DNA from: a phage
Length of the DNA: 48,914 nucleotides
Reading direction: 5' to 3' (one strand)
Sequence record: PZ445533.1
This document shows positions 28,066 through 40,946 of this stretch, piece by piece (within the stretch, counting starts at the first letter, position 1; every line of letters starts with the position of its first letter). Made by a program: the position numbers and the translations under genes. Under the pieces are notes generated by a model, which searched no databases, had not been told where the DNA came from, and worked only from the letters and a program-made list of their open reading frames with translations.

Positions 28066-28130
28066 CATAGCATTTTTTGTTAAAACAGTTTATTGTAATG
28101 AGTCTATTATATACTCCAAATGGCATTTTT
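28066..28130 (+). promoter_or_regulatory. Motif copy in divergent region between HTH gene and helicase
   Basis: ATAGCATTTTTTGTTAAAAC then TATTAT 22 nt after TTGTTA, no hairpin; about 60 nt upstream of helicase ATG. Confidence 0.4.
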
Positions 28131-28142
28131 TAAAGGTTTAAG

Positions 28143-30140
28143 ATGATTCCAAATATCGAAAAACAAATATCAGCATTAGGCGAGGCAGTAATAAAAAGCA
28201 TCCAAGAGCGATTCACGGTTGGCAATATAGTGCCTTATCCTTATCAGTGCGTTGCGTATGCAGAGATCGCAAAGCGCATGAAAAACTATGAGCATCCTTT
28301 CTTTGTTAAGGCTTCTGTATCGGCTGGCAAAACATTGATGTTTGCGATGGTTGCGGCGCAATGCCGCAAAATGGGATTGAAAATGATGGTCCTTGCTCGC
28401 CAGGCTGAAATTGTTGATCAGGATTCGGAAGAGATCAGCAATCTTGGCGTGCCAAACTCAATCTATTGCGCCGGACTGAAAACAAAAAGCGCATACTTTC
28501 CGATCGTAGTCGGTTCTGAGGGCACTGTAGTAAACGGATTGTTTAAGTCGTTAGGTGATTATGTTCCGCACGTTATCGGTATTGATGAATGTCACCAGGT
28601 GGATTGGGAGGATCTCGCGGACGCGATAGAAAATAATGAATCTTACCAGCAGATGACCACTAAGAAGGATTTGCCAGTACTGATTGGAGAAGAACAGCAA
28701 TTTGATTCCAATGGCGATCCAATGTTCGGAACAGGGCGCACACAGTACACCGTAATAATAATGGAAATGATGCGTAGGTGTCGCGAGGCATACGGGCACG
28801 AATTGCGAATATTCGGCATGACTGGATCTGAGTTTCGCGGCGTGGTTCCAATACTGGTTGAAGATAAGAACAAAAAGGGATTCTGGCGTGAGCAGGTGAC
28901 TAACATAGACACAAACTACTTAATCAAATTCGGTTCGGTAGTGCCAACAAACTTCGGCGACGTAGGCGACCTGGGTTATGACCTTTCAGAGTTCGAAGCC
29001 AGTAGCGAGGATGGCGTTTCAGACTTTGACGCTAAAACATTGCGCAAGATGGAAGAAAAGATCCATCAAGACGCAACAATGACACAGAAAATCATGGCTA
29101 AAGTCCATGAGATATGCAAAGACAGGAACGGAGTTTTAGTTACATGCGCAGGGGAAAGGCACTGCAAGGAGGCCGCCGCCGCACTGCCGCCAGGCGTTGA
29201 ATACAGGATCATAACTGGCAAGACTGGAGATAATCAGCGTAAAGAGTGGCTGAGGGAGGCATACGAGGGAAAAGTAAAATACATCTTCCAGGTACAGGCG
29301 CTTACCACTGGCGTTAACGTTCCGTTTTGGGATACTTCTGTAATACTGAGAAAGATAGGATCTCTAACATTGCTTATCCAGCTTTTGGGGCGCGGCATGC
29401 GACTGCTTAAGCAATGGCACATTGAGCAGGGATTCAAGAAAAAAGATCATCTTGTATTGGATTTTGCAGGTACTATGGATGAGTTAGGTGATTTGTATTT
29501 CGATCCAATCCTTGAGCAAGCGCAATTCCAAAAGAGATTTACAAACGGGAAAGAGCCTAAGACTTGTCCGATATGTGGAACGCTAAACAGCTTTTACGCT
29601 CGCCGATGTATGCACGTAGACGATAACGGGAAACGATGCGAGCATTTTTGGACTTACAGAATTTGCGAGGACCAGGTAGATCCGAGAACAAAAAAGATAA
29701 TCAAGCGCGGTTGCGGAACAAAAAACGACGTAGTGGCGAGAGTTTGCCGTTGTTGCGATATTTCTCTTGTCGATCCTAACGAGAAGTTAAGCGGTAAGCA
29801 CTACACCAAAAACGATTGGTGCAACGTTAAATATTTCCGCGTTGATATGACGAAAAACCAGAAAGGAATTGTTTTTTGCTATGAGCTTGAGGCCAACGGC
29901 GACACGTTCAAGGCATACGAAAGATTTTTCCCTGAGTCAGAAAGCAACATTTGCCGGACGATATGGAGAAAAATAGCATTGCAGCACATACCGGATCGCA
30001 AGATTGCTGGTATGGTGGCGAGCTATAGAAATGCGCGTAAAATAATGTCATACGCTCATCACATCATGCCGCCTGTACGCGTAACGCATCGCAAAAACGG
30101 CAAAGGTGAGGATAACATTGCAAAACGGGAGTTTGTTTAA
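28143..30140 (+). CDS. SF2 DNA helicase with C-terminal zinc-ribbon region
   Basis: Walker A ASVSAGKT, DECH box, TGS motif, QLLGRGMR motif VI; Cys-rich C-terminus. Confidence 0.85.
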   Translation: MIPNIEKQISALGEAVIKSIQERFTVGNIVPYPYQCVAYAEIAKRMKNYEHPFFVKASVSAGKTLMFAMVAAQCRKMGLKMMVLARQAEIVDQDSEEISNLGVPNSIYCAGLKTKSAYFPIVVGSEGTVVNGLFKSLGDYVPHVIGIDECHQVDWEDLADAIENNESYQQMTTKKDLPVLIGEEQQFDSNGDPMFGTGRTQYTVIIMEMMRRCREAYGHELRIFGMTGSEFRGVVPILVEDKNKKGFWREQVTNIDTNYLIKFGSVVPTNFGDVGDLGYDLSEFEASSEDGVSDFDAKTLRKMEEKIHQDATMTQKIMAKVHEICKDRNGVLVTCAGERHCKEAAAALPPGVEYRIITGKTGDNQRKEWLREAYEGKVKYIFQVQALTTGVNVPFWDTSVILRKIGSLTLLIQLLGRGMRLLKQWHIEQGFKKKDHLVLDFAGTMDELGDLYFDPILEQAQFQKRFTNGKEPKTCPICGTLNSFYARRCMHVDDNGKRCEHFWTYRICEDQVDPRTKKIIKRGCGTKNDVVARVCRCCDISLVDPNEKLSGKHYTKNDWCNVKYFRVDMTKNQKGIVFCYELEANGDTFKAYERFFPESESNICRTIWRKIALQHIPDRKIAGMVASYRNARKIMSYAHHIMPPVRVTHRKNGKGEDNIAKREFV

Positions 30141-30559
30141 TGGCTATAACTGATAAAGGAGATTATCTTGAGTTTTACGAAAGAGATCCAACCGACACTA
30201 GAAAGGAAGTTAATCACCAGATAGATAGCTTTCAGTGGTTGACTTATGCTCATCCTTACTTGCTGGCGTGGCATACGGTAAACGAGAATGAGAAGTCGAA
30301 AGTAACGGCGATGATTGATCAGCAGTCCGGCTTGGTTAAGGGGGTAAGCGATTTCATCATCCTGATTGGTTCAAACGGAAAATACCCCTTTGCAGCGATT
30401 GAGATCAAACGAGTTAATAAATCAGGCAAGGGGAAAGCATCACCAGTCAGCGATGAACAAAAGGCTTTTTTGCGTCGCGTTCGCAGTTTAGGAGGATTCG
30501 CTGCGGTCGCCTACGGATTTAATCAGTTTAAGTTAGCTATTGAATACATGCTTAAATAG
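30140..30559 (+). CDS. VRR-NUC domain nuclease
   Basis: GVSDFIIL...AAIEIKR...DEQKAFL pattern typical of VRR-NUC PD-(D/E)XK fold; TAATG overlap with helicase. Confidence 0.7.
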   Translation: MAITDKGDYLEFYERDPTDTRKEVNHQIDSFQWLTYAHPYLLAWHTVNENEKSKVTAMIDQQSGLVKGVSDFIILIGSNGKYPFAAIEIKRVNKSGKGKASPVSDEQKAFLRRVRSLGGFAAVAYGFNQFKLAIEYMLK

Positions 30560-30612
30560 CACTTTTTGTTAAAACTGGCGCGATGGATTGCGCCATAATT
30601 CAATAACACGAG
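30553..30612 (+). promoter_or_regulatory. Motif cassette (21-bp box + hairpin + ATAAT) upstream of dam
   Basis: AAATAGCACTTTTTGTTAAAAC with TAG as stop of VRR-NUC gene; hairpin GGCGCGATGGATTGCGCC; CATAAT 22 nt after TTGTTA. Confidence 0.5.
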
Positions 30613-30639
30613 ATGGCTTTTAATAGCGGAGAAATGAAA

Positions 30640-31365
30640 ATGGCTAAAGATATTTTAGATAAAGACACACATGACGCATTCGTTAGCTTTGAGCAGTTGG
30701 AGAGAGAAACGTTTATAGGAAATGCTCTTGCAACTGGAGGCCATTACCAGGCAGTAAAGCCAAATCAATATTATAAGGTAAGCGGCAACCGATACGCTGG
30801 AAGCACTACGCCGGACGTTGTGCGCGATATGTGGAGCACACCTCAAGAGATCGTGGAGTGGATGGAATCAGAATTTGGCGAATACGATCTCGACGCGGCA
30901 GCAAGCCATGAAAACGCAGTTTGCGAGAAGTTCTATAGCAAGGAAACAAACTGCTTAAAGCGTTGGTGGGGTAGCAACAAGCACGTATGGCTTAACCCGC
31001 CGCACAGCAACCCAACGCCATTTATCAAGAAAGCAATTGAGCAAATGGAGCACAACAACCAAATTGATGTTTTGCTGCCTGCCGACAATTCCACGGCCTG
31101 GTTTTATGAGGCGCAGAAAAACGCGGCTGAAATCATATGGATCACTGGCGAGGTTTACGAAGAGGGGGGAGTGGAATATTCCCGCACCGGAAGAATCGCC
31201 TTTGTGTCTGGATTGACTGGCGAGCCTGTACAGGGCAACAATAAGGGAAGCGTGATTTTTGTCATGCGCAAACTTAAAGAAGGCGAGGAGCAGAAAACGC
31301 GATACGTTAAGATCAGCGATATTTGCCCCTCTGTAACCGAACGCCGCGCGCGCAAACGGAGCTAA
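30640..31365 (+). CDS. dam: DNA N6-adenine methyltransferase (phage Dam family)
   Basis: DLDAAAS and WLNPPHS motifs; GGAG RBS 9 nt upstream; ORF is open from 30613 so start uncertain. Confidence 0.65.
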   Translation: MAKDILDKDTHDAFVSFEQLERETFIGNALATGGHYQAVKPNQYYKVSGNRYAGSTTPDVVRDMWSTPQEIVEWMESEFGEYDLDAAASHENAVCEKFYSKETNCLKRWWGSNKHVWLNPPHSNPTPFIKKAIEQMEHNNQIDVLLPADNSTAWFYEAQKNAAEIIWITGEVYEEGGVEYSRTGRIAFVSGLTGEPVQGNNKGSVIFVMRKLKEGEEQKTRYVKISDICPSVTERRARKRS

Positions 31366-31369
31366 CACG

Positions 31370-31627
31370 ATGAAAAAAGAGAGAAGCGTTTATTTAAATG
31401 AAACTGGCGAGTGGTTGTTATTTCGCGCTATGGTGTGCGATGCACTTGATAAAAACCCTAACGTGAAAAAGATGATTGATTGCGATCCGTGGGAATTTTC
31501 AAGCGCATTAGATATGAGCTTTGAGGATACAAGAAAACTACCTCTTGAAAAATGGCACGAACAAATAAGAAATGACATGCAAGAGTTTGTCGATTCGTGG
31601 AATTTTCAGAACGGAATGATCCACTAA
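31370..31627 (+). CDS. Hypothetical protein
   Basis: 85 aa; stop TAA directly followed by the motif cassette. Confidence 0.5.
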   Translation: MKKERSVYLNETGEWLLFRAMVCDALDKNPNVKKMIDCDPWEFSSALDMSFEDTRKLPLEKWHEQIRNDMQEFVDSWNFQNGMIH

Positions 31628-31690
31628 TAGCACTTTTTGTTAAAACGCCCGGCATTTTGTCGGGCATAATTATTTCATCGAAACGAACGT
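31626..31690 (+). promoter_or_regulatory. Motif cassette
   Basis: AATAGCACTTTTTGTTAAAAC, hairpin GCCCGGCATTTTGTCGGGC, ATAATT, CATCGAAACGAAC, RBS GAGG. Confidence 0.5.
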
Positions 31691-34814: not shown

Positions 34815-34889
34815 CCTTTTTGGTTGGTTCGTTTCGATGAAACAAATATACCCGACACAAGGTCGGGAGTTTTAACAAAAAATGCTATT
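34815..34889 (-). promoter_or_regulatory. Motif cassette
   Basis: Minus-strand AATAGCATTTTTTGTTAAAAC, hairpin CCCGACCTTGTGTCGGG, TATATT, CATCGAAACGAACC. Confidence 0.5.
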
Positions 34890-35079
34890 CCATACGCTTT
34901 ACTGTAACCAATAACACACCATCATCATTGCATAAAACGTGTTCAGTGGTGCTAAAAGCTCGCATATCTGAATAAAGTAGCGTAAGTAAAGCATGAATAA
35001 AATCATCATGTGATATTGAATTTACGGCGCAGTGCTTCAAGATCTTGTCTATTAGCTTTTGCCTGGAACAATTCATCAT
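34885..35079 (-). CDS. Hypothetical small ORF overlapping 3' end of upstream gene (uncertain)
   Basis: 64 aa ORF whose TAG stop is the TAG inside the 21-bp motif; overlaps 35006-35401 by 74 nt. Confidence 0.2.
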   Translation of the reverse strand: MMNCSRQKLIDKILKHCAVNSISHDDFIHALLTLLYSDMRAFSTTEHVLCNDDGVLLVTVKRME

Positions 35080-35401
35080 CGCCCATCTCCCCTATTCTAG
35101 CTATATCCCTGATCCAGTCGTTGCGCATACCATCCAGGCTATACAATTCGAATCCGAAAGGCCGCTTTGACGATCCTTTGGACCAGTATTTTCCGCAGAC
35201 TCCATCTATATAACCAGCCGTCATCATTCTTGCGCAAAATTCCTTAGATGCAAGGCTGGCGAACATTCGCGGCGTAAGTCCGGCGGCCCGTGCGAGCCGC
35301 TCACATTCTCTATGCTGATAGATAAATTTGGCTATGTGCTGCCTGTTAAACCAATCGTATGACTCACACCATTTATACAGATCAAGCAAAAACATAATCA
35401 T
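35006..35401 (-). CDS. Hypothetical protein coupled to P-loop ATPase
   Basis: 131 aa; ATGA overlap with upstream 526-aa gene. Confidence 0.55.
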   Translation of the reverse strand: MIMFLLDLYKWCESYDWFNRQHIAKFIYQHRECERLARAAGLTPRMFASLASKEFCARMMTAGYIDGVCGKYWSKGSSKRPFGFELYSLDGMRNDWIRDIARIGEMGDDELFQAKANRQDLEALRRKFNIT

Positions 35402-36978
35402 CCCAGCAGTATTGGATTGACAAAAATAACACCATTAATCACACAAACATAATTTCTTTCTTCCAGCATTGGCAGTAAGTGCCCTTCTATCCTTTTCATT
35501 ACGCCAGCCTGACCAACGAAAGGTTTTACCTTTCTCGCTGATTCGTACAGGGCGCGGATATTCAGAATCCCTTTATTAGCCTTGCCGTGCCTCGTGATCA
35601 ATTCAATCAATTTACCCATTTCAGCATCATCACCAGCATAACCAGAAGCATTGGCGGCGCTAATGTATGTTTTGCTCAATTCCTGAAACATGATCAACGC
35701 CTCTTGCATTGTTTCCACGTCGATCTCTTTCGACTTCTGCGGGTATCCGGCAGGATTAAACCAGTTACGGATAACATGCAGGACGGAAGCAAGCCTGATC
35801 ACCTGTTTATCCATTTTACCCAGCGCACCGCGTAACATTGTATGAGAATACTTTCCTCCGTCTGCAAGATGCGGTTCCATATCCTGGCGAGCAATGTTGA
35901 GCACTCGCATAGCTGAACGGCTTATTTTCAGCGATATATTTGATTCGCTCATGATGTTATGCACCAATTGATAATATTGGGCTTTCAATTCAGAATCCAC
36001 CGCCTCATAGGTAGAATCACCATTTTCATCAATGAATGAGCGACGGCCTAAGAATGATTCCTCTCGGACCAACAAAAAACGCTCACTAACACCGATGCCT
36101 CGCGATCCAGCGTCCATGATTCCGCTTATCGTTTCATCCTGGGCTATGACGCTCATACATCCAAGCGCGCGAAAACTCATATTATTGTCAGCATTAGCGC
36201 GGGCAATTGATACGTGACCATTATCCCACGCCTTAAGCACTAACTCACTGTTAGTCTTCCTTTCGCTATTTGCATAGGTCAAGCCTAACAGACTGTTAAT
36301 ACTTGTTGCTTCATCAGATATTACGGCAAAGTTACCTTGCTTGTTGTTGATTTTCGCCAAGCCTTCTGGAGTTGTATCTGAAACAGGAAAAGTTATATCA
36401 CACATTTTTTCCAGCTTTTCCTCCAGATCCTCTTTTTCCTGGTATAGAGATTCCATATCAGCGCCGGATCTTTCGCTTTTCATCTCCTTTGCAAGACCTG
36501 CCAGCTTTGCCTGTATTTTCTTTCTTTCCTTGCGGCGTTGCTCGTTGATCTTCTCAACTTCCGCAATCATCGGAGCAATAGCCATGCTGTTGATCGCAGA
36601 TTTACCAGTTGACGGCGGCTGGCTTGTAACGACGTAAAGCGCAGTCGGCTGATCGGTTCCGTGATAGTCAACCGTAAAGCGTCCAAGCATAGCGGCAGAA
36701 ATGCAGCCGATAAAGTGCATGTAAGCCGATGATTCAGGGAATTGAACGGATCGCGCAATGCTGCGTGATAACTTGCCGACAACATCAATATCATTACCAA
36801 GAGAAATAACGGGGTAGCGATCGTGACCGCTATTCACATCCTTTACGTCGCCCCAAAAGCTGGACGACTGGCGATAGCCGTTAGCCTGAATTGATACGCG
36901 AACTGGCGAAAGGTTCTGGCTTTCAGCCATAGCGATTATTTGTTGTGGAGTTAATTTGTTCGTTTCTAATGAAAACAT
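35398..36978 (-). CDS. P-loop NTPase of unknown function (deviant Walker A PPSTGKS, Walker B VISDEA)
   Basis: 526 aa; SF3-helicase-like Walker A variant, Walker B hhhhDE about 90 aa downstream with charged coiled insert; first gene behind motif cassette. Confidence 0.5.
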   Translation of the reverse strand: MFSLETNKLTPQQIIAMAESQNLSPVRVSIQANGYRQSSSFWGDVKDVNSGHDRYPVISLGNDIDVVGKLSRSIARSVQFPESSAYMHFIGCISAAMLGRFTVDYHGTDQPTALYVVTSQPPSTGKSAINSMAIAPMIAEVEKINEQRRKERKKIQAKLAGLAKEMKSERSGADMESLYQEKEDLEEKLEKMCDITFPVSDTTPEGLAKINNKQGNFAVISDEATSINSLLGLTYANSERKTNSELVLKAWDNGHVSIARANADNNMSFRALGCMSVIAQDETISGIMDAGSRGIGVSERFLLVREESFLGRRSFIDENGDSTYEAVDSELKAQYYQLVHNIMSESNISLKISRSAMRVLNIARQDMEPHLADGGKYSHTMLRGALGKMDKQVIRLASVLHVIRNWFNPAGYPQKSKEIDVETMQEALIMFQELSKTYISAANASGYAGDDAEMGKLIELITRHGKANKGILNIRALYESARKVKPFVGQAGVMKRIEGHLLPMLEERNYVCVINGVIFVNPILLG

Positions 36979-36984
36979 TCGTTA

Positions 36985-37053
36985 GCTTCTCCTTTGTGGG
37001 CCGTAAATTTTAACGGCCCAATACTACCCCGTTTTGTCAAAAAGTGCTATTTG
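36985..37053 (-). promoter_or_regulatory. Motif cassette (box carries canonical TTGACA) upstream of P-loop ATPase gene
   Basis: Minus-strand AAATAGCACTTTTTGACAAAAC, hairpin GGGCCG...CGGCCC with TAAAAT in loop 22 nt after TTGACA. Confidence 0.5.
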
Positions 37054-37268
37054 ATCCGCTCTATTGCAACCAGAAGTCGATCAGGCTGGCGGTCGCTGTA
37101 GCATTCTCCTGTAATCCCATCCTTAAACGTAAAGTAAAGCGCCTTATGATATGAAAAACCAATCAGCCAACCTACCGCCGTTTTTTTGATGGGCCTGACT
37201 ATATCGCCAGGCTTGAAAGTCTTTGTGGTAGAATGCGTTACTTTGTAACGGTTTTCACTGTTTATCAC
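37047..37268 (-). CDS. Hypothetical protein
   Basis: 73 aa; ATGA overlap with upstream gene; stop TAG within motif. Confidence 0.5.
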   Translation of the reverse strand: MINSENRYKVTHSTTKTFKPGDIVRPIKKTAVGWLIGFSYHKALYFTFKDGITGECYSDRQPDRLLVAIERIK

Positions 37269-37651
37269 AGATATTTGCCCTCAAACAGATAACAGCCGCC
37301 AGCAGAGAATCCGACCTCTTCACGGTACAGGTTCCAGCGGTCGCCGCACTCATCAAAAACATAACCCGCAACGCTTCCAAGCGGTCGCCCTTTCTCGATC
37401 TGGTATCGCTTGCCCTGCTTAAAGTGCTTTTTGCACGGCATGTTATGATCTACAAACGTGCAAAGAACGGTTTTTGTGTTAATGGAGCGGTAATCATCTC
37501 GGTTTGCTGGAAGCCAGCGGCTACCCTTAACAAGCGTCTTAACCTGGAACTCTTCCACCTCGATCACATCATCACTTCCTGCAATCTTCTGATAAACCGT
37601 TTTAAAACGGCCTTTCATCAATACGTTGGTTTCATTACAGATAACATTCAT
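37265..37651 (-). CDS. Hypothetical protein
   Basis: 128 aa; AAGGAG RBS; directly downstream of motif cassette. Confidence 0.55.
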   Translation of the reverse strand: MNVICNETNVLMKGRFKTVYQKIAGSDDVIEVEEFQVKTLVKGSRWLPANRDDYRSINTKTVLCTFVDHNMPCKKHFKQGKRYQIEKGRPLGSVAGYVFDECGDRWNLYREEVGFSAGGCYLFEGKYL

Positions 37652-37659
37652 GATTAGAT

Positions 37660-37727
37660 CTCCTTTGTTTGTTCGATGTGATTATGCCAGGTTTTTACAC
37701 CTGGCTTTTAACAAAAAGTGCTATTTT
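37660..37727 (-). promoter_or_regulatory. Motif cassette
   Basis: Minus-strand motif containing methyltransferase stop TAG, hairpin GCCAGGTGTAAAAACCTGGC, ATAATC, TCGAACAAACAAAGGAG. Confidence 0.5.
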
Positions 37728-38431
37728 GAGTTTGACTCAAAGACTGCGCGAGCAAAGCCGCGCGGAGTGAGGGAGCGGATCATCTTTGTGCGCGATGACT
37801 TGCCGCCAGTTTTGGCCCAGCCTGGATTATCTTTGTCTTCCTCTTTCGGCAGGATTAAAGCGCGTGGAGGAATAACAAAGCCGTTGCCAGTCCAGAGGCA
37901 CGTTTTCTTAAAATAGCGATCACGCGCCGGAATAATATCAGGGAAGTCGGGATGTTTATCATCTTCCGGCAGATAGCCAGCGTAATCGCACGGATGGAAC
38001 GTATAATCAGGCTTACGCCATAACGTTGACAACTTGCCAACCGGATTTTCGATCATGTAAGGAACACCGAAATAATCAGCTATATCAGCCGCGATTCTGC
38101 AAGTGTCGGCGGCCTCATCCTGGAACGATGGATTCTCAAGGCGTTTTTTGGCCCAATGGCGAGATCCGCTATTTGCAAGGTCGGTGCAAGGAGGGAACGC
38201 CATAATAAAATCAGGATTGCCCCACTCATTATTGATTGCCTTAACATAAAAAGCATCATCAATCCAGACGTTAACGTATTCGATATTCTCATGCTGTATG
38301 CGCACTGACTGGTAATCACCGTGATCGCCGCCGTCAGCATTAAAGCAAATGCACTTATATCCATTATCAGCCCAATCTTTAACTGCTTTACCAGATCCAT
38401 CAAATAGGGAGAACATTAAACCTTTATACAT
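37721..38431 (-). CDS. Compact DNA (cytosine-5)-methyltransferase-like protein
   Basis: 236 aa; motif I-like FSLFDGSG, motif IV FPPCTDLANSG (PC catalytic Cys), motif VI ENPVG, C-terminal TPRGFARAVF; GAGG RBS 8 nt upstream of ATG 38431. Confidence 0.6.
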   Translation of the reverse strand: MYKGLMFSLFDGSGKAVKDWADNGYKCICFNADGGDHGDYQSVRIQHENIEYVNVWIDDAFYVKAINNEWGNPDFIMAFPPCTDLANSGSRHWAKKRLENPSFQDEAADTCRIAADIADYFGVPYMIENPVGKLSTLWRKPDYTFHPCDYAGYLPEDDKHPDFPDIIPARDRYFKKTCLWTGNGFVIPPRALILPKEEDKDNPGWAKTGGKSSRTKMIRSLTPRGFARAVFESNSK

Positions 38432-38441
38432 CGTCATTACC

Positions 38442-38666
38442 TCAAAACGGAAAACAGCGCGGACAACCAGGATCGAAATCGCATCCACAATCATTAACAA
38501 TCATAGTGGGATCTGCAAATATTGCGCTTGATTCAAGATCCATATCCATATCACCTAAAGCCTCATCAAGAGTCTTAATTTTATATGCCACTTCAAGCGC
38601 CGCCTCTTTATTTAGTCCGGCATCTTCTGCCATTTGAAGGCGCTCAAAAAATCCGTCTTGACTCAT
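38442..38666 (-). CDS. Small acidic protein with C-terminal Cys knuckle (CGCDFDPGCPRC)
   Basis: 74 aa, 16 acidic vs about 5 basic residues; stop overlaps RBS of methyltransferase gene. Confidence 0.5.
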   Translation of the reverse strand: MSQDGFFERLQMAEDAGLNKEAALEVAYKIKTLDEALGDMDMDLESSAIFADPTMIVNDCGCDFDPGCPRCFPF

Positions 38667-38779
38667 CGCATAATCCCCTTAATAACAGCCAAGATAATAG
38701 CCAGGCCAGCAGTAGTAACCAAAAAGCCAACCGCGCCAATAATCGAATAAAAAAAGAAATCAATAGCCTTATCTATCAT
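38663..38779 (-). CDS. Small hydrophobic membrane peptide (38 aa)
   Basis: Own translation: MIDKAIDFFFYSIIGAVGFLVTTAGLAIILAVIKGIMR; GAGGTGG RBS; stop TGA overlaps ATG of next gene; not in ORF track (under 60 aa). Confidence 0.4.
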   Translation of the reverse strand: MIDKAIDFFFYSIIGAVGFLVTTAGLAIILAVIKGIMR

Positions 38780-38820
38780 TTCCACCTCATTTAAAAGGCG
38801 GCAAAACGCCGCCATATTAA

Positions 38821-39048
38821 TTAAAGAGCACGCCAACTTTGAATATAGAAAGAGTTTTCTTCCAGTAATTCTTTTAACTGATCTTTATTGTATTTGCGCA
38901 CCTTACCGCCTGGATGGATACCAATAAGATAGCCTCCTTTGCCCTCGGTGATAGTGATTTGGCTAATTCCACAAGACTTATCAAGTTTTACAGCCACGCG
39001 GTGATGAGCGTCAATAGTTGACATAATGTTTAAAACTTTTGCTTTCAT
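38821..39048 (-). CDS. Hypothetical protein
   Basis: 75 aa ORF in minus-strand small-gene block. Confidence 0.45.
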   Translation of the reverse strand: MKAKVLNIMSTIDAHHRVAVKLDKSCGISQITITEGKGGYLIGIHPGGKVRKYNKDQLKELLEENSFYIQSWRAL

Positions 39049-39156
39049 TTAAATATCCTCAATTGAAATATGAATGGCGTCGTGCTCTTTTTCCGTCTCC
39101 GCCGTAATGGTCATTTGCAACCGCTACCATCCAGGCATTTTTGAAAATAAATAGCC

Positions 39157-39369
39157 TCATTTCTTATTTTTCATCTTAAATTTATGGCCTGGAACACCAG
39201 CACCAATATAGCCATCGTTGTATTCCATTAAATAAAGGTGAAGGCCATTATCTGAAATTACATGAGGATCTTCTTTGAGATTTCCCATTAGCGGGTATTC
39301 TTTTCCGCGCGTAAATCTCCAAGTTGAGTCATAAGTTTCTACGCATTTAAGTTTTAATTGCTTTGCCAT
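39157..39369 (-). CDS. Hypothetical protein
   Basis: 70 aa; start overlaps upstream stop (ATGG...TAA). Confidence 0.45.
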   Translation of the reverse strand: MAKQLKLKCVETYDSTWRFTRGKEYPLMGNLKEDPHVISDNGLHLYLMEYNDGYIGAGVPGHKFKMKNKK

Positions 39370-39566
39370 TAGATGATCTCCATGTATGTTTCAAAGCCAT
39401 TTAACTTGAACAGGCCGTTTTCACATTTGCGAACGTTCCAAGTTAGCCCTGAGTGGTACGCCTCCATATCATCAAGGTCAATGGTGATTTCAGCACCTTT
39501 CTTAAACAAACCTTTTTCGTGAGACTTGTCGCGCTTAACAACTTTAACATCAACCTGATTTTCCAT
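39369..39566 (-). CDS. Hypothetical protein
   Basis: 65 aa; directly downstream of motif cassette with GAGGA RBS. Confidence 0.5.
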   Translation of the reverse strand: MENQVDVKVVKRDKSHEKGLFKKGAEITIDLDDMEAYHSGLTWNVRKCENGLFKLNGFETYMEII

Positions 39567-39574
39567 CTTTAAAT

Positions 39575-39643
39575 CCTCGTTTGTTGTCGATGCGCTTACT
39601 ATACCAATCAGCAGCGCATCGTTTTTAACAAAAAGTGCTATTT
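39575..39643 (-). promoter_or_regulatory. Motif cassette
   Basis: Minus-strand motif, hairpin GATGCGCT...AGCGCATC with TATAGT in loop, CATCGACAACAAACGAGGA. Confidence 0.5.
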
Positions 39644-39863
39644 AGTCCAGAAATTCGATTTCACGCTCTCCAGTTAACGGATTTACAAGCCAGAATCCGA
39701 GAGGTTCGCCGTGAACACCGCCATAGAATCCAAGCGCCGCCAGATCTTCACCTTTAACGAATACCAGGTTTCCGCTACGGCTTACGTGAGACACGTTAAC
39801 GATAACCGGAAATATGCGATCCTTAAATGCAGGCCGCAGGGCGTAACATCCGTTATTGAGCAA
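39642..39863 (-). CDS. Hypothetical protein
   Basis: 73 aa; stop TAA immediately followed by motif. Confidence 0.45.
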   Translation of the reverse strand: MLNNGCYALRPAFKDRIFPVIVNVSHVSRSGNLVFVKGEDLAALGFYGGVHGEPLGFWLVNPLTGEREIEFLD

Positions 39864-39917
39864 ACGTGCTTTGCGCTAAACTGGAATAGGTGCATTAATT
39901 TTCATGGTTATTACTCC

Positions 39918-40130
39918 TTATCGTAAAGATTTAAAGACGTATAGTTTATTGCGGTAACTATATATCCGCATTGTTATTTCTCGCAGTGCAATATATTCCT
40001 TCCTGTTTTCCGGCAGACTGGCGAGCAACAACAGACAGTATTTATAAGCGCGATCAAGATTCCTTTCCGTGCCCCTGCAATATCCCTTGTTGCGCCTGGA
40101 GCGGTACAGCCATAACAATTTCTTGAACAT
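39918..40130 (-). CDS. Hypothetical basic small protein (uncertain)
   Basis: 70 aa from internal ATG placed 1 nt after stop of upstream gene (TGAAATG); Arg/Lys-rich. Confidence 0.3.
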   Translation of the reverse strand: MFKKLLWLYRSRRNKGYCRGTERNLDRAYKYCLLLLASLPENRKEYIALREITMRIYSYRNKLYVFKSLR

Positions 40131-40131
40131 T

Positions 40132-40341
40132 TCAGATCCGCCCATACAGATCGCAAACTTCGTTGATAAAACAGCGTTGAGACTCTTTATCCTGCTTCTC
40201 AAACATCGCACGGCACTCATAGCGGTGATTATGTACGATGACAACAACCATATTTTCAGGTGCTGACGGGTGACGCGCGGAAGCGTCGCAGATTGAAACA
40301 TCCATACCCATCTCATGTGCTTTCTTGATCACATCCAACAT
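40132..40341 (-). CDS. Hypothetical protein
   Basis: 69 aa from second ATG; protein-like composition. Confidence 0.4.
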   Translation of the reverse strand: MLDVIKKAHEMGMDVSICDASARHPSAPENMVVVIVHNHRYECRAMFEKQDKESQRCFINEVCDLYGRI

Positions 40342-40595
40342 TTTTTCTTCTCCTGCAATAAGCAAACATCATTGATAAAATCAGCACGGCCCTTAATGTT
40401 GCTGATGTGGAACGTCTTTTCAGCGTACAGGCCATCACCTTCAATCACGATCATTACGCGAGTCGGTTTATTCACGGGCGCACACGAAAAGAGTGGTCGC
40501 GCCGGAAGAAATTTAGTGGTCACATCCAGGTTAGCCCTGGCGGCCCTGCAAAATGCCTCCGCCAGATCCAAATCATTTTCGGTAATCACCGCCAT
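40329..40595 (-). CDS. Hypothetical protein
   Basis: 88 aa; ATGA-type coupling with upstream gene. Confidence 0.45.
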   Translation of the reverse strand: MAVITENDLDLAEAFCRAARANLDVTTKFLPARPLFSCAPVNKPTRVMIVIEGDGLYAEKTFHISNIKGRADFINDVCLLQEKKKCWM

Positions 40596-40867
40596 TACTT
40601 TTTGATCTCCTTACTGATAAATTTCAGCACATGGCGCAAGAAAACTTCGTTGTTGATAGTCGCTGGCAATTCTTCTTTCACTTCTTGCGGCAGATAGATA
40701 TTGCCGTGCCAGGTCAAGCAATCGTAGTTGATACGATAAGAGCAAAGCCACTCGCAATCGTTATCTGCTTCCCAAATGCAGAGTTGCAGAACATCGCCAA
40801 AATCTTCAACAGTCAGATCCAGACCGTGACGCTTAGCGAAATTGAAAGTGGTTTTGCTGATGTTCAT
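40595..40867 (-). CDS. Hypothetical protein, first gene of leftward small-gene operon
   Basis: 90 aa; AGGAG RBS; motif cassette immediately upstream. Confidence 0.55.
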   Translation of the reverse strand: MNISKTTFNFAKRHGLDLTVEDFGDVLQLCIWEADNDCEWLCSYRINYDCLTWHGNIYLPQEVKEELPATINNEVFLRHVLKFISKEIKK

Positions 40868-40874
40868 TTACTAT

Positions 40875-40946
40875 CTCCTGAGCGGTTCGTTTCGATGTGT
40901 GTAATGTACCCGATCAGGCGGCCTGATTTTTAACAAAAAGTGCTAT
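40875..40946 (-). promoter_or_regulatory. Motif cassette at head of leftward small-gene operon
   Basis: Minus-strand motif, hairpin ATCAGGCCGCCTGAT, TACATT, CATCGAAACGAACC, RBS AGGAG. Confidence 0.5.

What the first reader, a model, noticed from the sequence alone, without database searches (positions are those of the whole stretch)
37721..38779. Candidate anti-restriction operon: small membrane peptide, acidic Cys-knuckle protein, compact orphan C5-methyltransferase
Three translationally coupled genes on the minus strand. (1) 38-aa hydrophobic peptide (38663-38779). (2) 74-aa strongly acidic protein (net charge about -10) ending in CGCDFDPGCPRC, compatible with a DNA-mimic or zinc-binding inhibitor. 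(3) 236-aa protein with C5-cytosine methyltransferase motifs I (FDGSG), IV (FPPCTDLANSG), VI (ENPVG) and X-like (TPRGFARAVF), unusually short for the family and with no cognate restriction gene nearby. Together with the separate Dam-type methyltransferase this suggests layered protection of phage DNA against host restriction.
Basis: partly seen in the sequence, partly recalled or inferred. Interest (0 to 1): 0.65.

Follow-up and report, generated by a model that had tools for sequence, protein, structure and literature searches.

The report
Known T1-like phage Dcm methyltransferase locus
The methyltransferase is a real but already known and tested phage enzyme, a Dcm-like cytosine methylase that also sets off the retron Ec86 defence; the two small genes before it are real genes of unknown function, and the three do not form a dedicated anti-restriction operon.

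The parts
37721..38431 (-). dcm: 236-aa Dcm-like orphan C5-cytosine DNA methyltransferase. Motif I is F10-D-G-S-G14, the catalytic residues are P81-C82, motif VI is E128-N-P130, then K175-K176, and the C-terminal helix is R224-GFARAVF.
38440..38443 (-). GAGG Shine-Dalgarno of dcm, overlapping the TGA stop (38444-38442) of the 74-aa gene.
   Evidence: Sequence. Two K42 escaper phages carry a single C-to-A change 9 bp upstream of dcm. In the KarlJaspers sequence that position is a G of GAGG on the gene strand. This is an inference, because the K42 sequence itself was not available.
38442..38666 (-). 74-aa acidic protein (net charge -11). It has a small N-terminal helical module, a disordered acidic linker, then C60-x-C62-x5-C68-x2-C71 and a terminal F-P-F. 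Function unknown.
   Evidence: phrog_9323 E=3.8e-37, annotated 'unknown function'. dN/dS 0.12-0.14. 450 phage records; every listed record but one partial 29-kb entry is 46-53 kb, and all retrieved ones are Drexlerviridae. AF2 pLDDT 62.9. Comparison of C-termini across 66 loci.
38663..38779 (-). 38-aa single-pass membrane peptide. Its stop overlaps the start of the 74-aa gene (ATGA).
   Evidence: Found in 93 phage records. 55-58% identical between Warwickvirus and Hanrivervirus, with hydrophobicity retained. dN/dS 0.2-0.4. Two unrelated 39-40-aa membrane peptides sit at the same position in other lineages, and Tls, Tunavirus and Webervirus have none.
38797..38813 (-). Terminator-like hairpin GGCGGCgttTTGCCGCC followed by TTTT, between the 75-aa gene and the 38-aa gene.
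   Evidence: A hairpin with a different stem sequence followed by a T-run is at the same place in KarlJaspers and ESh4. This is covariation across only three sequences.
37681..37723 (-). Promoter-like element that closes the unit. It starts at the dcm stop codon: TAGCACTTTTTGTTAAAA, then a GC-rich hairpin spacer, then CATAAT.
   Evidence: One of 16 copies of the 18-mer in the window (expected 0.15). The architecture is shared by most copies. The hairpin stem covaries among phages.
39623..39640 (-). The next copy of the same promoter-like 18-mer upstream on the minus strand. It is the likely start of the transcription unit that contains the three genes.
39369..39566 (-). First gene of the same unit: a 65-aa homologue of Gp54, the Bas11 protein that activates CapRel-SJ46. 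Listed as context, not as part of the claimed operon.
   Evidence: Pfam PF25180 E=1.7e-38. PMC11578894.
30613..31365 (+).
   Evidence: Pfam PF05869 E=2.8e-60. PADLOC orphan MTase E=3e-103.

Best explanation
The finding covers the last three genes of a seven-ORF early transcription unit of a T1-like (Drexlerviridae, Warwickvirus) coliphage. The only gene with an assignable function is dcm. It encodes a minimal, orphan, SAM-dependent C5-cytosine DNA methyltransferase, orthologous to the characterised Dcm of phage K42/KarlJaspers. Cys82 of the Pro-Cys motif attacks C6 of the target cytosine, Glu128 of the ENx motif helps, and the FDGSG loop and the C-terminal helix hold SAM. The target is most likely the inner C of CCWGG, as for host Dcm. 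Methylating replicating phage DNA makes the phage independent of host Dcm and protects it from CCWGG-cutting enzymes such as EcoRII. The Dam enzyme does the same for GATC. All other palindromes are handled by strong site avoidance. The cost is that the enzyme also methylates retron Ec86 (Eco1) msDNA and so triggers abortive infection. Shown here: the gene, its orthology, its fold and its motifs. Shown in the literature for the K42 enzyme: 5mC formation, dependence on a catalytic-site mutant, and the retron trigger. Inferred: CCWGG specificity of this enzyme and its anti-restriction benefit. The 74-aa and 38-aa genes are translated in series with dcm but are not functionally tied to it. The 74-aa protein is a conserved Drexlerviridae backbone protein of unknown role, most likely a protein-binding adaptor. 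The 38-aa peptide is a lineage-specific membrane-peptide insert.
For: Identity: the region is 99.3% identical to phages swan01, orkinos and tunzivis. Synteny and annotation match FritzSarasin. Dcm is 99.6% identical to FritzSarasin and 89% to KarlJaspers, with the same 236-aa length. The K42 residues C82, E128, K175 and K176 fall at the same numbers here. K42 Dcm raised 5mC on msDNA, a four-residue active-site mutant did not, mutating CCTGG in the msDNA abolished defence, and escaper phages had lost dcm or its ribosome-binding site. Family membership: PHROG 757 E=4.8e-85. C82 is invariant, and F79, P80, E128 and N129 are nearly invariant, in 60 sequences only 33-56% identical. A profile built from homologues finds only DNMT3B, aligned across motifs I to IV (E=0.09). 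Role: the genome has 125 CCWGG sites (observed/expected 1.02) and 286 GATC sites (0.99). In contrast, 22 of 64 six-base palindromes are absent, against 2.8% of other hexamers, and CCSGG is at 0.14. Unit structure: promoter-like 18-mers at 39640 and 37723 bracket the genes. Independence of the small genes. Plasmid-expressed Dcm alone was active in vivo.
Against: Pfam PF00145, NCBIfam and PADLOC do not detect the protein, and only 2 of 60 family members touch PF00145, weakly. Membership therefore rests on fold, motifs and the literature. CCWGG specificity was assumed by analogy in the K42 work, not mapped. The experiments were done in dcm+ MG1655, where host Dcm did not trigger the retron, so the phage enzyme may differ in site or substrate preference. 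Lack of CCWGG and GATC depletion is also expected simply because E. coli hosts carry Dam and Dcm. The BASEL study found no simple relation between methyltransferase genes and restriction phenotype in Drexlerviridae. No experiment has shown that dcm benefits the phage. The promoter and terminator assignments are pattern-based only.
Confidence: 0.78

Rival explanations
1. One reading: the three genes form a dedicated anti-restriction operon, in which the 74-aa acidic protein is an Ocr/ArdA-like DNA mimic or zinc-dependent inhibitor of restriction enzymes and the methyltransferase adds a second layer.
For: Net charge is -11 in 74 residues. The gene sits in an early region and is translationally coupled to dcm. 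It lies immediately upstream of dcm in several genera. FritzSarasin and PeterMerian, the closest BASEL relatives, are unusually restriction-resistant.
Against: There is no Pfam hit at E<=1, which includes the Ocr and ArdA models, and the PHROG families are 'unknown function'. The AF2 model has pLDDT 63 with a disordered acidic stretch rather than a rigid charged surface. KarlJaspers carries all three genes (85% identical 74-aa protein), and the BASEL text names only FritzSarasin and PeterMerian as highly resistant and calls most other Drexlerviridae very sensitive. KarlJaspers's own phenotype was not looked up. Resistance of this lineage is more simply explained by site avoidance: 0 EcoKI, 0 EcoRV and 1 EcoRI site. 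The 38-aa peptide is not a conserved partner.
Confidence: 0.08
2. The 74-aa protein is a Dcm-specific accessory factor, for example a regulator, chaperone or specificity modulator, which would explain the tight coupling.
For: The gap to dcm is 8-23 nt in Warwickvirus, Hanrivervirus, Webervirus, Eclunavirus and unclassified contigs. The Cys4 form mostly goes with this adjacency, and the Cys-less Tunavirus form does not.
Against: K42 Dcm expressed alone was active. The Cys4 form persists in L052, where an HNH gene replaces dcm. L058 has a Cys-less form with dcm 407 nt downstream. Tunavirus keeps the gene 2.3-3.2 kb from dcm. There are 1526 phage records with dcm against 450 with the 74-aa gene. 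The correlation reduces to very few independent lineages.
Confidence: 0.1
3. [quoted passage not shown] Its terminal (F/I)P(F/W), presented by an acidic tail or a zinc knuckle, would occupy the SSB-tail pocket of host or phage genome-maintenance proteins.
For: The terminal tripeptide is conserved down to 37% identity while the linker varies. The forms seen are CFPF, CIPF(W), CMPF, DDDDYIPW and KFDDGIPF. The phage's own SSB ends in PPIDFDDDIPF. In this window the tail reads C-DFD-PGCPRC-FPF.
Against: The resemblance was noticed after the fact and rests on three residues. Webervirus and Eclunavirus forms carry an extra terminal Trp, which would move the carboxylate that SSB-tail pockets recognise (established knowledge of SSB-Ct binding). 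A search of the paper library for such a phage decoy listed no title or abstract describing one; none of the 11 papers was opened.
Confidence: 0.12
4. The methyltransferase recognises something other than CCWGG, or prefers single-stranded or hairpin DNA, and its main role is not protection from EcoRII-type enzymes.
For: The region between motif VIII and the C-terminal helix is very short. Host Dcm in MG1655 did not activate Ec86, whereas the phage enzyme did. The specificity has never been mapped.
Against: Changing CCTGG to AATGG, ACTGG or CATGG in the msDNA abolished defence. CCWGG is not depleted, although the related CCSGG is at observed/expected 0.14.
Confidence: 0.15

Closest known systems
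Dcm of phage K42 / KarlJaspers (Bas06), the trigger of retron Ec86 (Eco1); bioRxiv 10.1101/2023.08.16.553469
   Same: Same length (236 aa, 711 bp) and 89% identity to the Bas06 protein. C82, E128, K175 and K176 are at the same positions. The same three-gene arrangement (37/38-aa peptide, 74-aa protein, dcm) and the same GAGG ribosome-binding site overlapping the upstream stop.
   Different: A different genus (Warwickvirus rather than Hanrivervirus). About 11% of residues differ, mostly at positions 46-72. The activity of this particular protein is untested.
FritzSarasin (Bas04) bas04_0049-0051, and the same genes in swan01, orkinos, tonn and tunus
   Same: 97.7-99.3% DNA identity over 2.6 kb. 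All three ORFs are annotated there, and the methyltransferase is named 'Dcm-like C5 cytosine methyltransferase' or 'dcm'.
   Different: None of substance. This window is another isolate of the same species group.
Canonical C5-cytosine DNA methyltransferases (Pfam PF00145: M.HhaI, M.HaeIII, E. coli Dcm/M.EcoRII, DNMT3A/B catalytic domain)
   Different: Sequence identity is only 10-17% and there is no PF00145 hit. The protein is about 100 residues shorter than M.HhaI, with a much reduced region where the target-recognition domain normally sits. It has no partner restriction enzyme.
Ocr (T7 gp0.3) and ArdA DNA-mimic anti-restriction proteins
   Same: Small, strongly acidic, early-expressed phage or plasmid proteins.
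   Different: No sequence or profile similarity. No confident folded charged surface. The Cys4 knuckle and the hydrophobic C-terminal tip have no counterpart in Ocr or ArdA (my knowledge of those structures).
C-terminal tip of bacterial and phage SSB (DDDIPF)
   Same: An acidic run followed by a terminal I/F-P-F/W. The phage's own SSB carries DFDDDIPF.
   Different: There is no OB fold. In this window a Cys4 knuckle replaces most of the acidic run. The resemblance is a lead, not a test.

Membership tests
C5-cytosine DNA methyltransferase (class of PF00145) | Motif I FxGxG SAM-binding loop | tested here: met
   F10-D-G-S-G14. D11, G12, S13 and G14 are invariant in 41 homologues. The loop aligns with VLSLFDG of DNMT3B.
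C5-cytosine DNA methyltransferase (class of PF00145) | Motif IV Pro-Cys with the catalytic cysteine | tested here: met
   P81-C82. C82 is invariant in 60 sequences of 33-56% identity. It aligns with PCNDLS of DNMT3B.
C5-cytosine DNA methyltransferase (class of PF00145) | Motif VI ENV-type glutamate | tested here: met
   E128-N129-P130. P130 is invariant and E128 and N129 are at least 90% conserved.
C5-cytosine DNA methyltransferase (class of PF00145) | Overall fold of the catalytic domain | tested here: met
C5-cytosine DNA methyltransferase (class of PF00145) | Scores above the curated Pfam/NCBIfam family threshold | tested here: not met
   No Pfam hit at E<=1 and no NCBIfam hit. Only 2 of 60 relatives touch PF00145, at E=0.004. 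It is a divergent branch outside the curated models.
C5-cytosine DNA methyltransferase (class of PF00145) | Variable target-recognition domain between motifs VIII and IX | tested here: inconclusive
   Only about 45 residues (about 178-222) lie between K175-K176 and the C-terminal helix. They include the lowest-confidence block (residues 201-210, pLDDT 58). Which part reads the DNA was not determined.
C5-cytosine DNA methyltransferase (class of PF00145) | Forms 5-methylcytosine in DNA | not testable with these tools
   Shown by LC-MS for the K42 enzyme, and lost in the C82A/E128A/K175A/K176A mutant.
Phage Dcm-like methyltransferase (PHROG 757; K42/KarlJaspers Dcm) | Family profile match over the full length | tested here: met
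   E=4.8e-85 over residues 2-237 of the 238-aa query that starts at the first ATG. 1526 phage records hold a homologue, and there are 1189 clusters at 50% identity.
Phage Dcm-like methyltransferase (PHROG 757; K42/KarlJaspers Dcm) | CCWGG specificity and activation of retron Ec86 | not testable with these tools
   Inferred from 89% identity to Bas06 Dcm and the K42 data. It is consistent with CCWGG observed/expected of 1.02.
Type II restriction-modification system | A cognate restriction endonuclease gene next to the methyltransferase | tested here: not met
   The neighbours are small proteins of unknown function and a DUF3987 helicase/ATPase. PADLOC gives no hit for the five genes of the cluster tested or for the DUF3987 gene. 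The enzyme is an orphan.
Ocr/ArdA-type DNA-mimic anti-restriction protein (74-aa protein) | Sequence or profile similarity to a known mimic family | tested here: not met
   No Pfam family at E<=1. No PDB sequence match below E=0.2. PHROG families 9323, 9085 and 4823 are all 'unknown function'.
Ocr/ArdA-type DNA-mimic anti-restriction protein (74-aa protein) | A rigid fold displaying a DNA-like array of carboxylates | tested here: inconclusive
   Net charge is -11, but AF2 gives pLDDT 62.9, with residues 41-52 below 50. The alignment behind the model was shallow (19 sequences, at least 68% identical).
Zinc knuckle or ribbon (74-aa protein C-terminus) | Four conserved metal-ligand cysteines with fixed spacing | tested here: met
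   C60, C62, C68 and C71 are invariant in 19 sequences. The CxCx5CxxC spacing is kept in Webervirus (44% identity); Eclunavirus has Cx3Cx5CxxC. The cysteines are absent in Tunavirus and in L058. Metal binding itself cannot be tested here.
SSB C-terminal-tip motif (74-aa protein) | A terminal hydrophobic-Pro-aromatic tripeptide preceded by acidic residues | tested here: inconclusive
   The terminal [FILM]P[FW] is found in 64 of 66 loci (exceptions: FQF in L042 and the truncated L045). The acidic run is clear in Tunavirus and L058, while here only DFD remains; Webervirus adds a final W. Binding cannot be tested here.

The most novel reading that the evidence does not exclude
The 74-aa protein defines an uncharacterised family of small Drexlerviridae adaptors. 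A three-helix head is linked to a C-terminal tip that imitates the SSB tail (DFDDDIPF), carried either on an acidic tail (Tunavirus) or on a zinc knuckle (this phage). The tip would dock into the SSB-tail pocket of host nucleases or helicases to disarm or recruit them early in infection. The recurrent, translationally coupled small membrane peptide just upstream might tether it or act with it.
Probability: 0.12. Interest if true: 0.6.

Novelty: already known. Interest (0 to 1): 0.2.

Why it matters
The assignable gene is an established phage counter-restriction and trigger gene, so the finding adds no new biology. It does confirm that sequence-only reading can pick out a methyltransferase that Pfam, NCBIfam and PADLOC all miss. 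Three points may be useful. First, the genome combines two orphan methyltransferases with extreme palindrome avoidance, which fits the restriction resistance reported for its closest BASEL relatives. Second, two known defence triggers (the Gp54 homologue and Dcm) lie in one early unit. Third, the 74-aa family, with its conserved terminal tip, is a cheap target for a deletion or pulldown experiment.

Tried and rejected
1. Pfam, NCBIfam and PADLOC scans of all three proteins gave nothing.
2. PDB sequence searches gave only marginal results. The single methyltransferase sequence and the 41-sequence profile gave DNMT3B at E=0.7 and 0.09. A more diverse 60-sequence profile lost even that.
3. I asked whether the hairpin just after dcm, which contains CCAGG and CCTGG, is a Dcm-linked regulatory site. 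I rejected this. Other genera have the same element with unrelated stem sequences and no CCWGG, and it belongs to a promoter-like repeat with 16 copies.
4. A BFVD fold search with the low-confidence 74-aa model returned only uncharacterised phage proteins. It did show that the N-terminal 44 residues recur inside longer proteins of ViI-like phages.
5. A profile search of the 5.8-billion-protein set with the 74-aa alignment found 230 relatives. The 120 listed are 63-82 aa, with no Pfam domains and no informative names.
6. Literature searches for the promoter-like 18-mer found nothing relevant, and none of the titles or abstracts listed for phage SSB-tail mimics described one.
7. A gapped promoter pattern search failed on tool syntax.
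8. I checked whether the Cys4 motif tracks adjacency to dcm. It mostly follows phylogeny, with exceptions both ways (L052 and L058), so I did not take it as evidence of a functional link.
Full report
**What the window is.** A 2.6-kb stretch around the finding is 99.3% identical to Escherichia phages swan01, orkinos and tunzivis, and 97.7% identical to the BASEL phage FritzSarasin (Drexlerviridae, Tempevirinae, Warwickvirus). The window is therefore a T1-like siphophage genome. In FritzSarasin all three ORFs are annotated (bas04_0049 to 0051), and the largest is named 'Dcm-like C5 cytosine methyltransferase'.

**Checking the observation.**
- The 38-aa ORF (38663-38779) has a strong GAGGTGG ribosome-binding site. 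Its stop overlaps the start of the 74-aa ORF (38442-38666) as ATGA.
- The 74-aa stop codon overlaps a GAGG, which lies 8 nt before the ATG that gives a 236-aa, 711-bp methyltransferase gene (37721-38431).
- The 74-aa protein has a net charge of -11 and ends in CGCDFDPGCPRCFPF.
- dN/dS against KarlJaspers, ESh4 and atuna is 0.11-0.24 for dcm, 0.12-0.14 for the 74-aa gene and 0.2-0.4 for the 38-aa gene.

**The methyltransferase.**
- *Curated libraries miss it.* There is no Pfam or NCBIfam hit at E<=1 and no PADLOC hit. Only 2 of 60 relatives touch PF00145, weakly.
- *PHROG 757 matches it.* This 'DNA methyltransferase' family scores E=4.8e-85.
- *PDB sequence searches point weakly to DNMT3B.* It is the only kind of hit, aligned from the FDG loop to the Pro-Cys motif (E=0.7 for the single sequence, 0.09 for a profile).
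- *The predicted structure is confident.* pLDDT is 91.2 and pTM 0.90.
- *The catalytic residues are conserved.* In 60 family members only 33-56% identical to the query, C82 is invariant, and F79, P80, E128 and N129 are at least 90% conserved.
- *The short length is not unusual.* The exhaustive search found 1189 clusters at 50% identity, and most of the 150 listed are 210-260 aa. A tblastn search found homologues in 1526 phage records, including 44-kb siphophages such as GeorgBuechner and 136-156-kb myophages.

**It is already characterised.** A preprint on retron Ec86 (10.1101/2023.08.16.553469) isolated escapers of phage K42, a KarlJaspers-like Drexlerviridae phage.
- All four escapers had lost or damaged a 711-bp dcm gene.
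- Expressing Dcm alone was toxic only when the retron was present.
- LC-MS showed raised 5mC on msDNA with wild-type Dcm, but not with a C82A/E128A/K175A/K176A mutant.
- Changing the CCTGG in the msDNA stem-loop abolished defence.
- 34 of 35 Ec86-sensitive phages in their collection encoded Dcm.
- A later paper cites this as established (PMC12916289).

The protein in this window is 89% identical to KarlJaspers Dcm, has the same length, and has C82, E128, K175 and K176 at the same numbers. Two K42 escapers carried a C-to-A change 9 bp upstream of dcm. In KarlJaspers that position is a G of the GAGG on the gene strand. This supports both the MYKGL start and the functional ribosome-binding site seen here. 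It is an inference, because I did not have the K42 sequence.

**What dcm does for the phage.** An anti-restriction role is plausible but not proven.
- The genome avoids palindromes very strongly. 22 of 64 six-base palindromes are absent, against 2.8% of other hexamers. It has 0 EcoRV, 0 HindIII, 0 BamHI, 1 EcoRI and 0 EcoKI sites, and CCSGG is at observed/expected 0.14.
- In contrast, CCWGG (125 sites, 1.02) and GATC (286 sites, 0.99) are at expectation.
- This is what one would expect if those two motifs are covered by the phage Dcm-like and Dam-like enzymes. The Dam enzyme is at 30613-31365 (PF05869, E=2.8e-60).
- The caveats are these. E. coli hosts carry Dam and Dcm themselves. The K42 study assumed rather than mapped CCWGG specificity, and it worked in a dcm+ host whose own Dcm did not trigger the retron. 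[quoted passage not shown]

**The 74-aa protein.**
- *Distribution.* It belongs to PHROG 9323, 'unknown function'. It occurs in 450 phage records; all but one of the listed records are 46-53 kb, and all retrieved ones are Drexlerviridae.
- *No known relatives.* It has no Pfam hit, which includes the Ocr and ArdA models, and no PDB sequence match.
- *Structure.* AF2 gives a low-confidence model (pLDDT 62.9) with three short helices (6-15, 20-27, 33-36), a disordered acidic stretch (41-52) and an irregular Cys-rich end.
- *Comparison of 66 IMG/VR loci and several GenBank phages.* The N-terminal module (R9, A13, A16-G-L18, E21, V26-A27, L33, A36-L-G38, M40-D41, E45) is conserved throughout. The C-terminus comes in three forms:
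  1. CxCx5CxxC followed by [FIM]PF(W) in Tempevirinae, Webervirus, Eclunavirus and unclassified contigs, mostly 8-23 nt upstream of dcm.
  2. A Cys-less poly-acidic tail ending DDDDYIPW in Tunavirus, where dcm lies 2.3-3.2 kb upstream.
  3. A Cys-less tail ending KFDDGIPF in L058.
- *Independence from dcm.* In L052 the Cys4 form is kept although an HNH endonuclease gene replaces dcm. Together with the activity of Dcm alone in the K42 experiments, this argues against an obligate functional pair.

The one feature conserved in nearly every form is the terminal hydrophobic-Pro-aromatic tip. It resembles the SSB C-terminal tip, and the phage's own SSB ends in PPIDFDDDIPF. I record this as a lead only. 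I noticed it after the fact, it rests on three residues, and it could not be tested here.

**The 38-aa peptide.**
- It has a single membrane-spanning segment.
- It is found in 93 records, all Warwickvirus or Hanrivervirus relatives, and is only 55-58% identical between the two genera.
- Tls, Tunavirus and Webervirus lack it. In those phages the conserved 75-aa gene, or a gene for a 108-117-aa Cys-rich protein, directly precedes the 74-aa gene.
- Two other lineages have unrelated 39-40-aa membrane peptides at the same position, also overlapping the start of the 74-aa gene.

The position therefore attracts small membrane-peptide genes, but this peptide is not a conserved partner.

**Operon structure.**
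- The 18-mer TAGCACTTTTTGTTAAAA occurs 16 times in the window at up to 3 mismatches, where 0.15 are expected.
- The copies checked around the finding (minus-strand copies at 34887-40945, plus-strand copies at 28068-31628) lie on the same strand as the neighbouring genes.
- Most copies are followed about 18-19 nt later by a -10-like hexamer, often across a GC-rich hairpin. At the copy just after dcm, the hairpin stem differs in sequence but keeps its pairing from phage to phage.
- One copy begins exactly at the dcm stop codon (37723). The next one upstream on the minus strand is at 39640.
- The unit so defined holds the ORFs of 65, 70, 33 and 75 aa, then a terminator-like hairpin (38797-38813; a different stem with a T-run sits at the same place in KarlJaspers and ESh4), then the 38-aa, 74-aa and dcm genes.
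- The first gene of the unit is a homologue of Gp54 (PF25180, E=1.7e-38), the small Bas11 protein that activates CapRel-SJ46 (PMC11578894).

The three genes are thus the distal part of a longer early unit, not an operon of their own. These transcription signals are pattern-based and untested.

**Verdict.**
- The gene is already annotated, and its close homologue has been characterised experimentally. The 'compact' size is the family norm. Neither comparative genomics nor any similarity search supports a three-gene anti-restriction module with a DNA-mimic component.
- What remains of interest is the uncharacterised 74-aa family and its conserved C-terminal tip.

Noticed in passing
window 1567, 6208, 9963, 20741, 26506, 28068, 30557, 31628, 34887, 37049, 37723, 39640, 40945, 42275, 43682, 45988 (5' ends): The 18-mer TAGCACTTTTTGTTAAAA occurs 16 times at up to 3 mismatches (expected 0.15); the copies checked around the finding lie on the strand of the neighbouring genes. 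Most copies are followed about 18-19 nt later by (C/T)ATAAT or TATAGT. The spacer is often a GC-rich hairpin; at the copy just after dcm its stem differs in sequence but keeps its pairing between phages. It looks like a family-specific promoter, perhaps with a regulator site. I found no description of it in the paper library.
   Followed up: partly
window 39369-39566 (-): This 65-aa ORF is a homologue of Gp54 (Pfam PF25180, E=1.7e-38), the Bas11 protein that directly activates the CapRel-SJ46 defence. It is the first gene of the same transcription unit as dcm, so two known defence triggers lie in one early unit.
   Followed up: partly
whole window: Palindrome avoidance is extreme. 22 of 64 six-base palindromes are absent, against 114 of 4032 other hexamers. 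There are 0 EcoKI (AACN6GTGC), 0 EcoRV, 0 HindIII, 0 BamHI and 1 EcoRI sites. This alone could explain the restriction resistance BASEL reported for the close relatives FritzSarasin and PeterMerian.
   Followed up: partly
L002 (phage Tls) about 2737-2814; also just after dcm in L018 and L019: An unannotated 25-codon ORF, MTPIEKICCPKHGGSGDKTTCPFCK, looks like a mini zinc ribbon. It sits between the 74-aa gene and dcm in Tls and, in a near-identical form, immediately after dcm in other contigs. It may be a small mobile ORF that travels with dcm.
   Followed up: no
L052 3232-3798: In one Webervirus contig a 188-aa HNH-type homing-endonuclease ORF replaces dcm at exactly the same position. This suggests dcm is an exchangeable accessory gene at this site.
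   Followed up: partly
phage collection records MG065643, MG065665, MG065670, MG065673, MG065680 and others: About 20-39 records named 'Campylobacter phage' with host Campylobacter jejuni are T1-like genomes of 29-50 kb that carry this E. coli-phage locus at 68-72% DNA identity. The host labels look doubtful.
   Followed up: no
window 38797-38813 (-): A terminator-like hairpin lies between the 75-aa gene and the 38-aa gene. KarlJaspers and ESh4 have a different stem sequence at the same place, followed by a T-run. With its short T-run it may attenuate expression of the 38-aa, 74-aa and dcm genes.
   Followed up: partly
BFVD hits E1XTJ6 (Salmonella phage ViI), G8GDS7 (PhiSH19), A0A0A0YRC2 (Erwinia phiEa2809): The N-terminal helical module of the 74-aa protein (about 44 residues) recurs at 36-39% identity inside longer (159-245 aa) uncharacterised proteins of ViI-like phages. 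This matches the weak PHROG 4823 hit.
   Followed up: no
window 30140-30559 (+) and 35398-36978 (-): A VRR-NUC nuclease-domain protein (PF08774, E=2e-10) lies directly upstream of Dam. The 526-aa protein annotated as 'helicase' downstream of the dcm cluster is a DUF3987 protein (E=1.7e-44).
   Followed up: no
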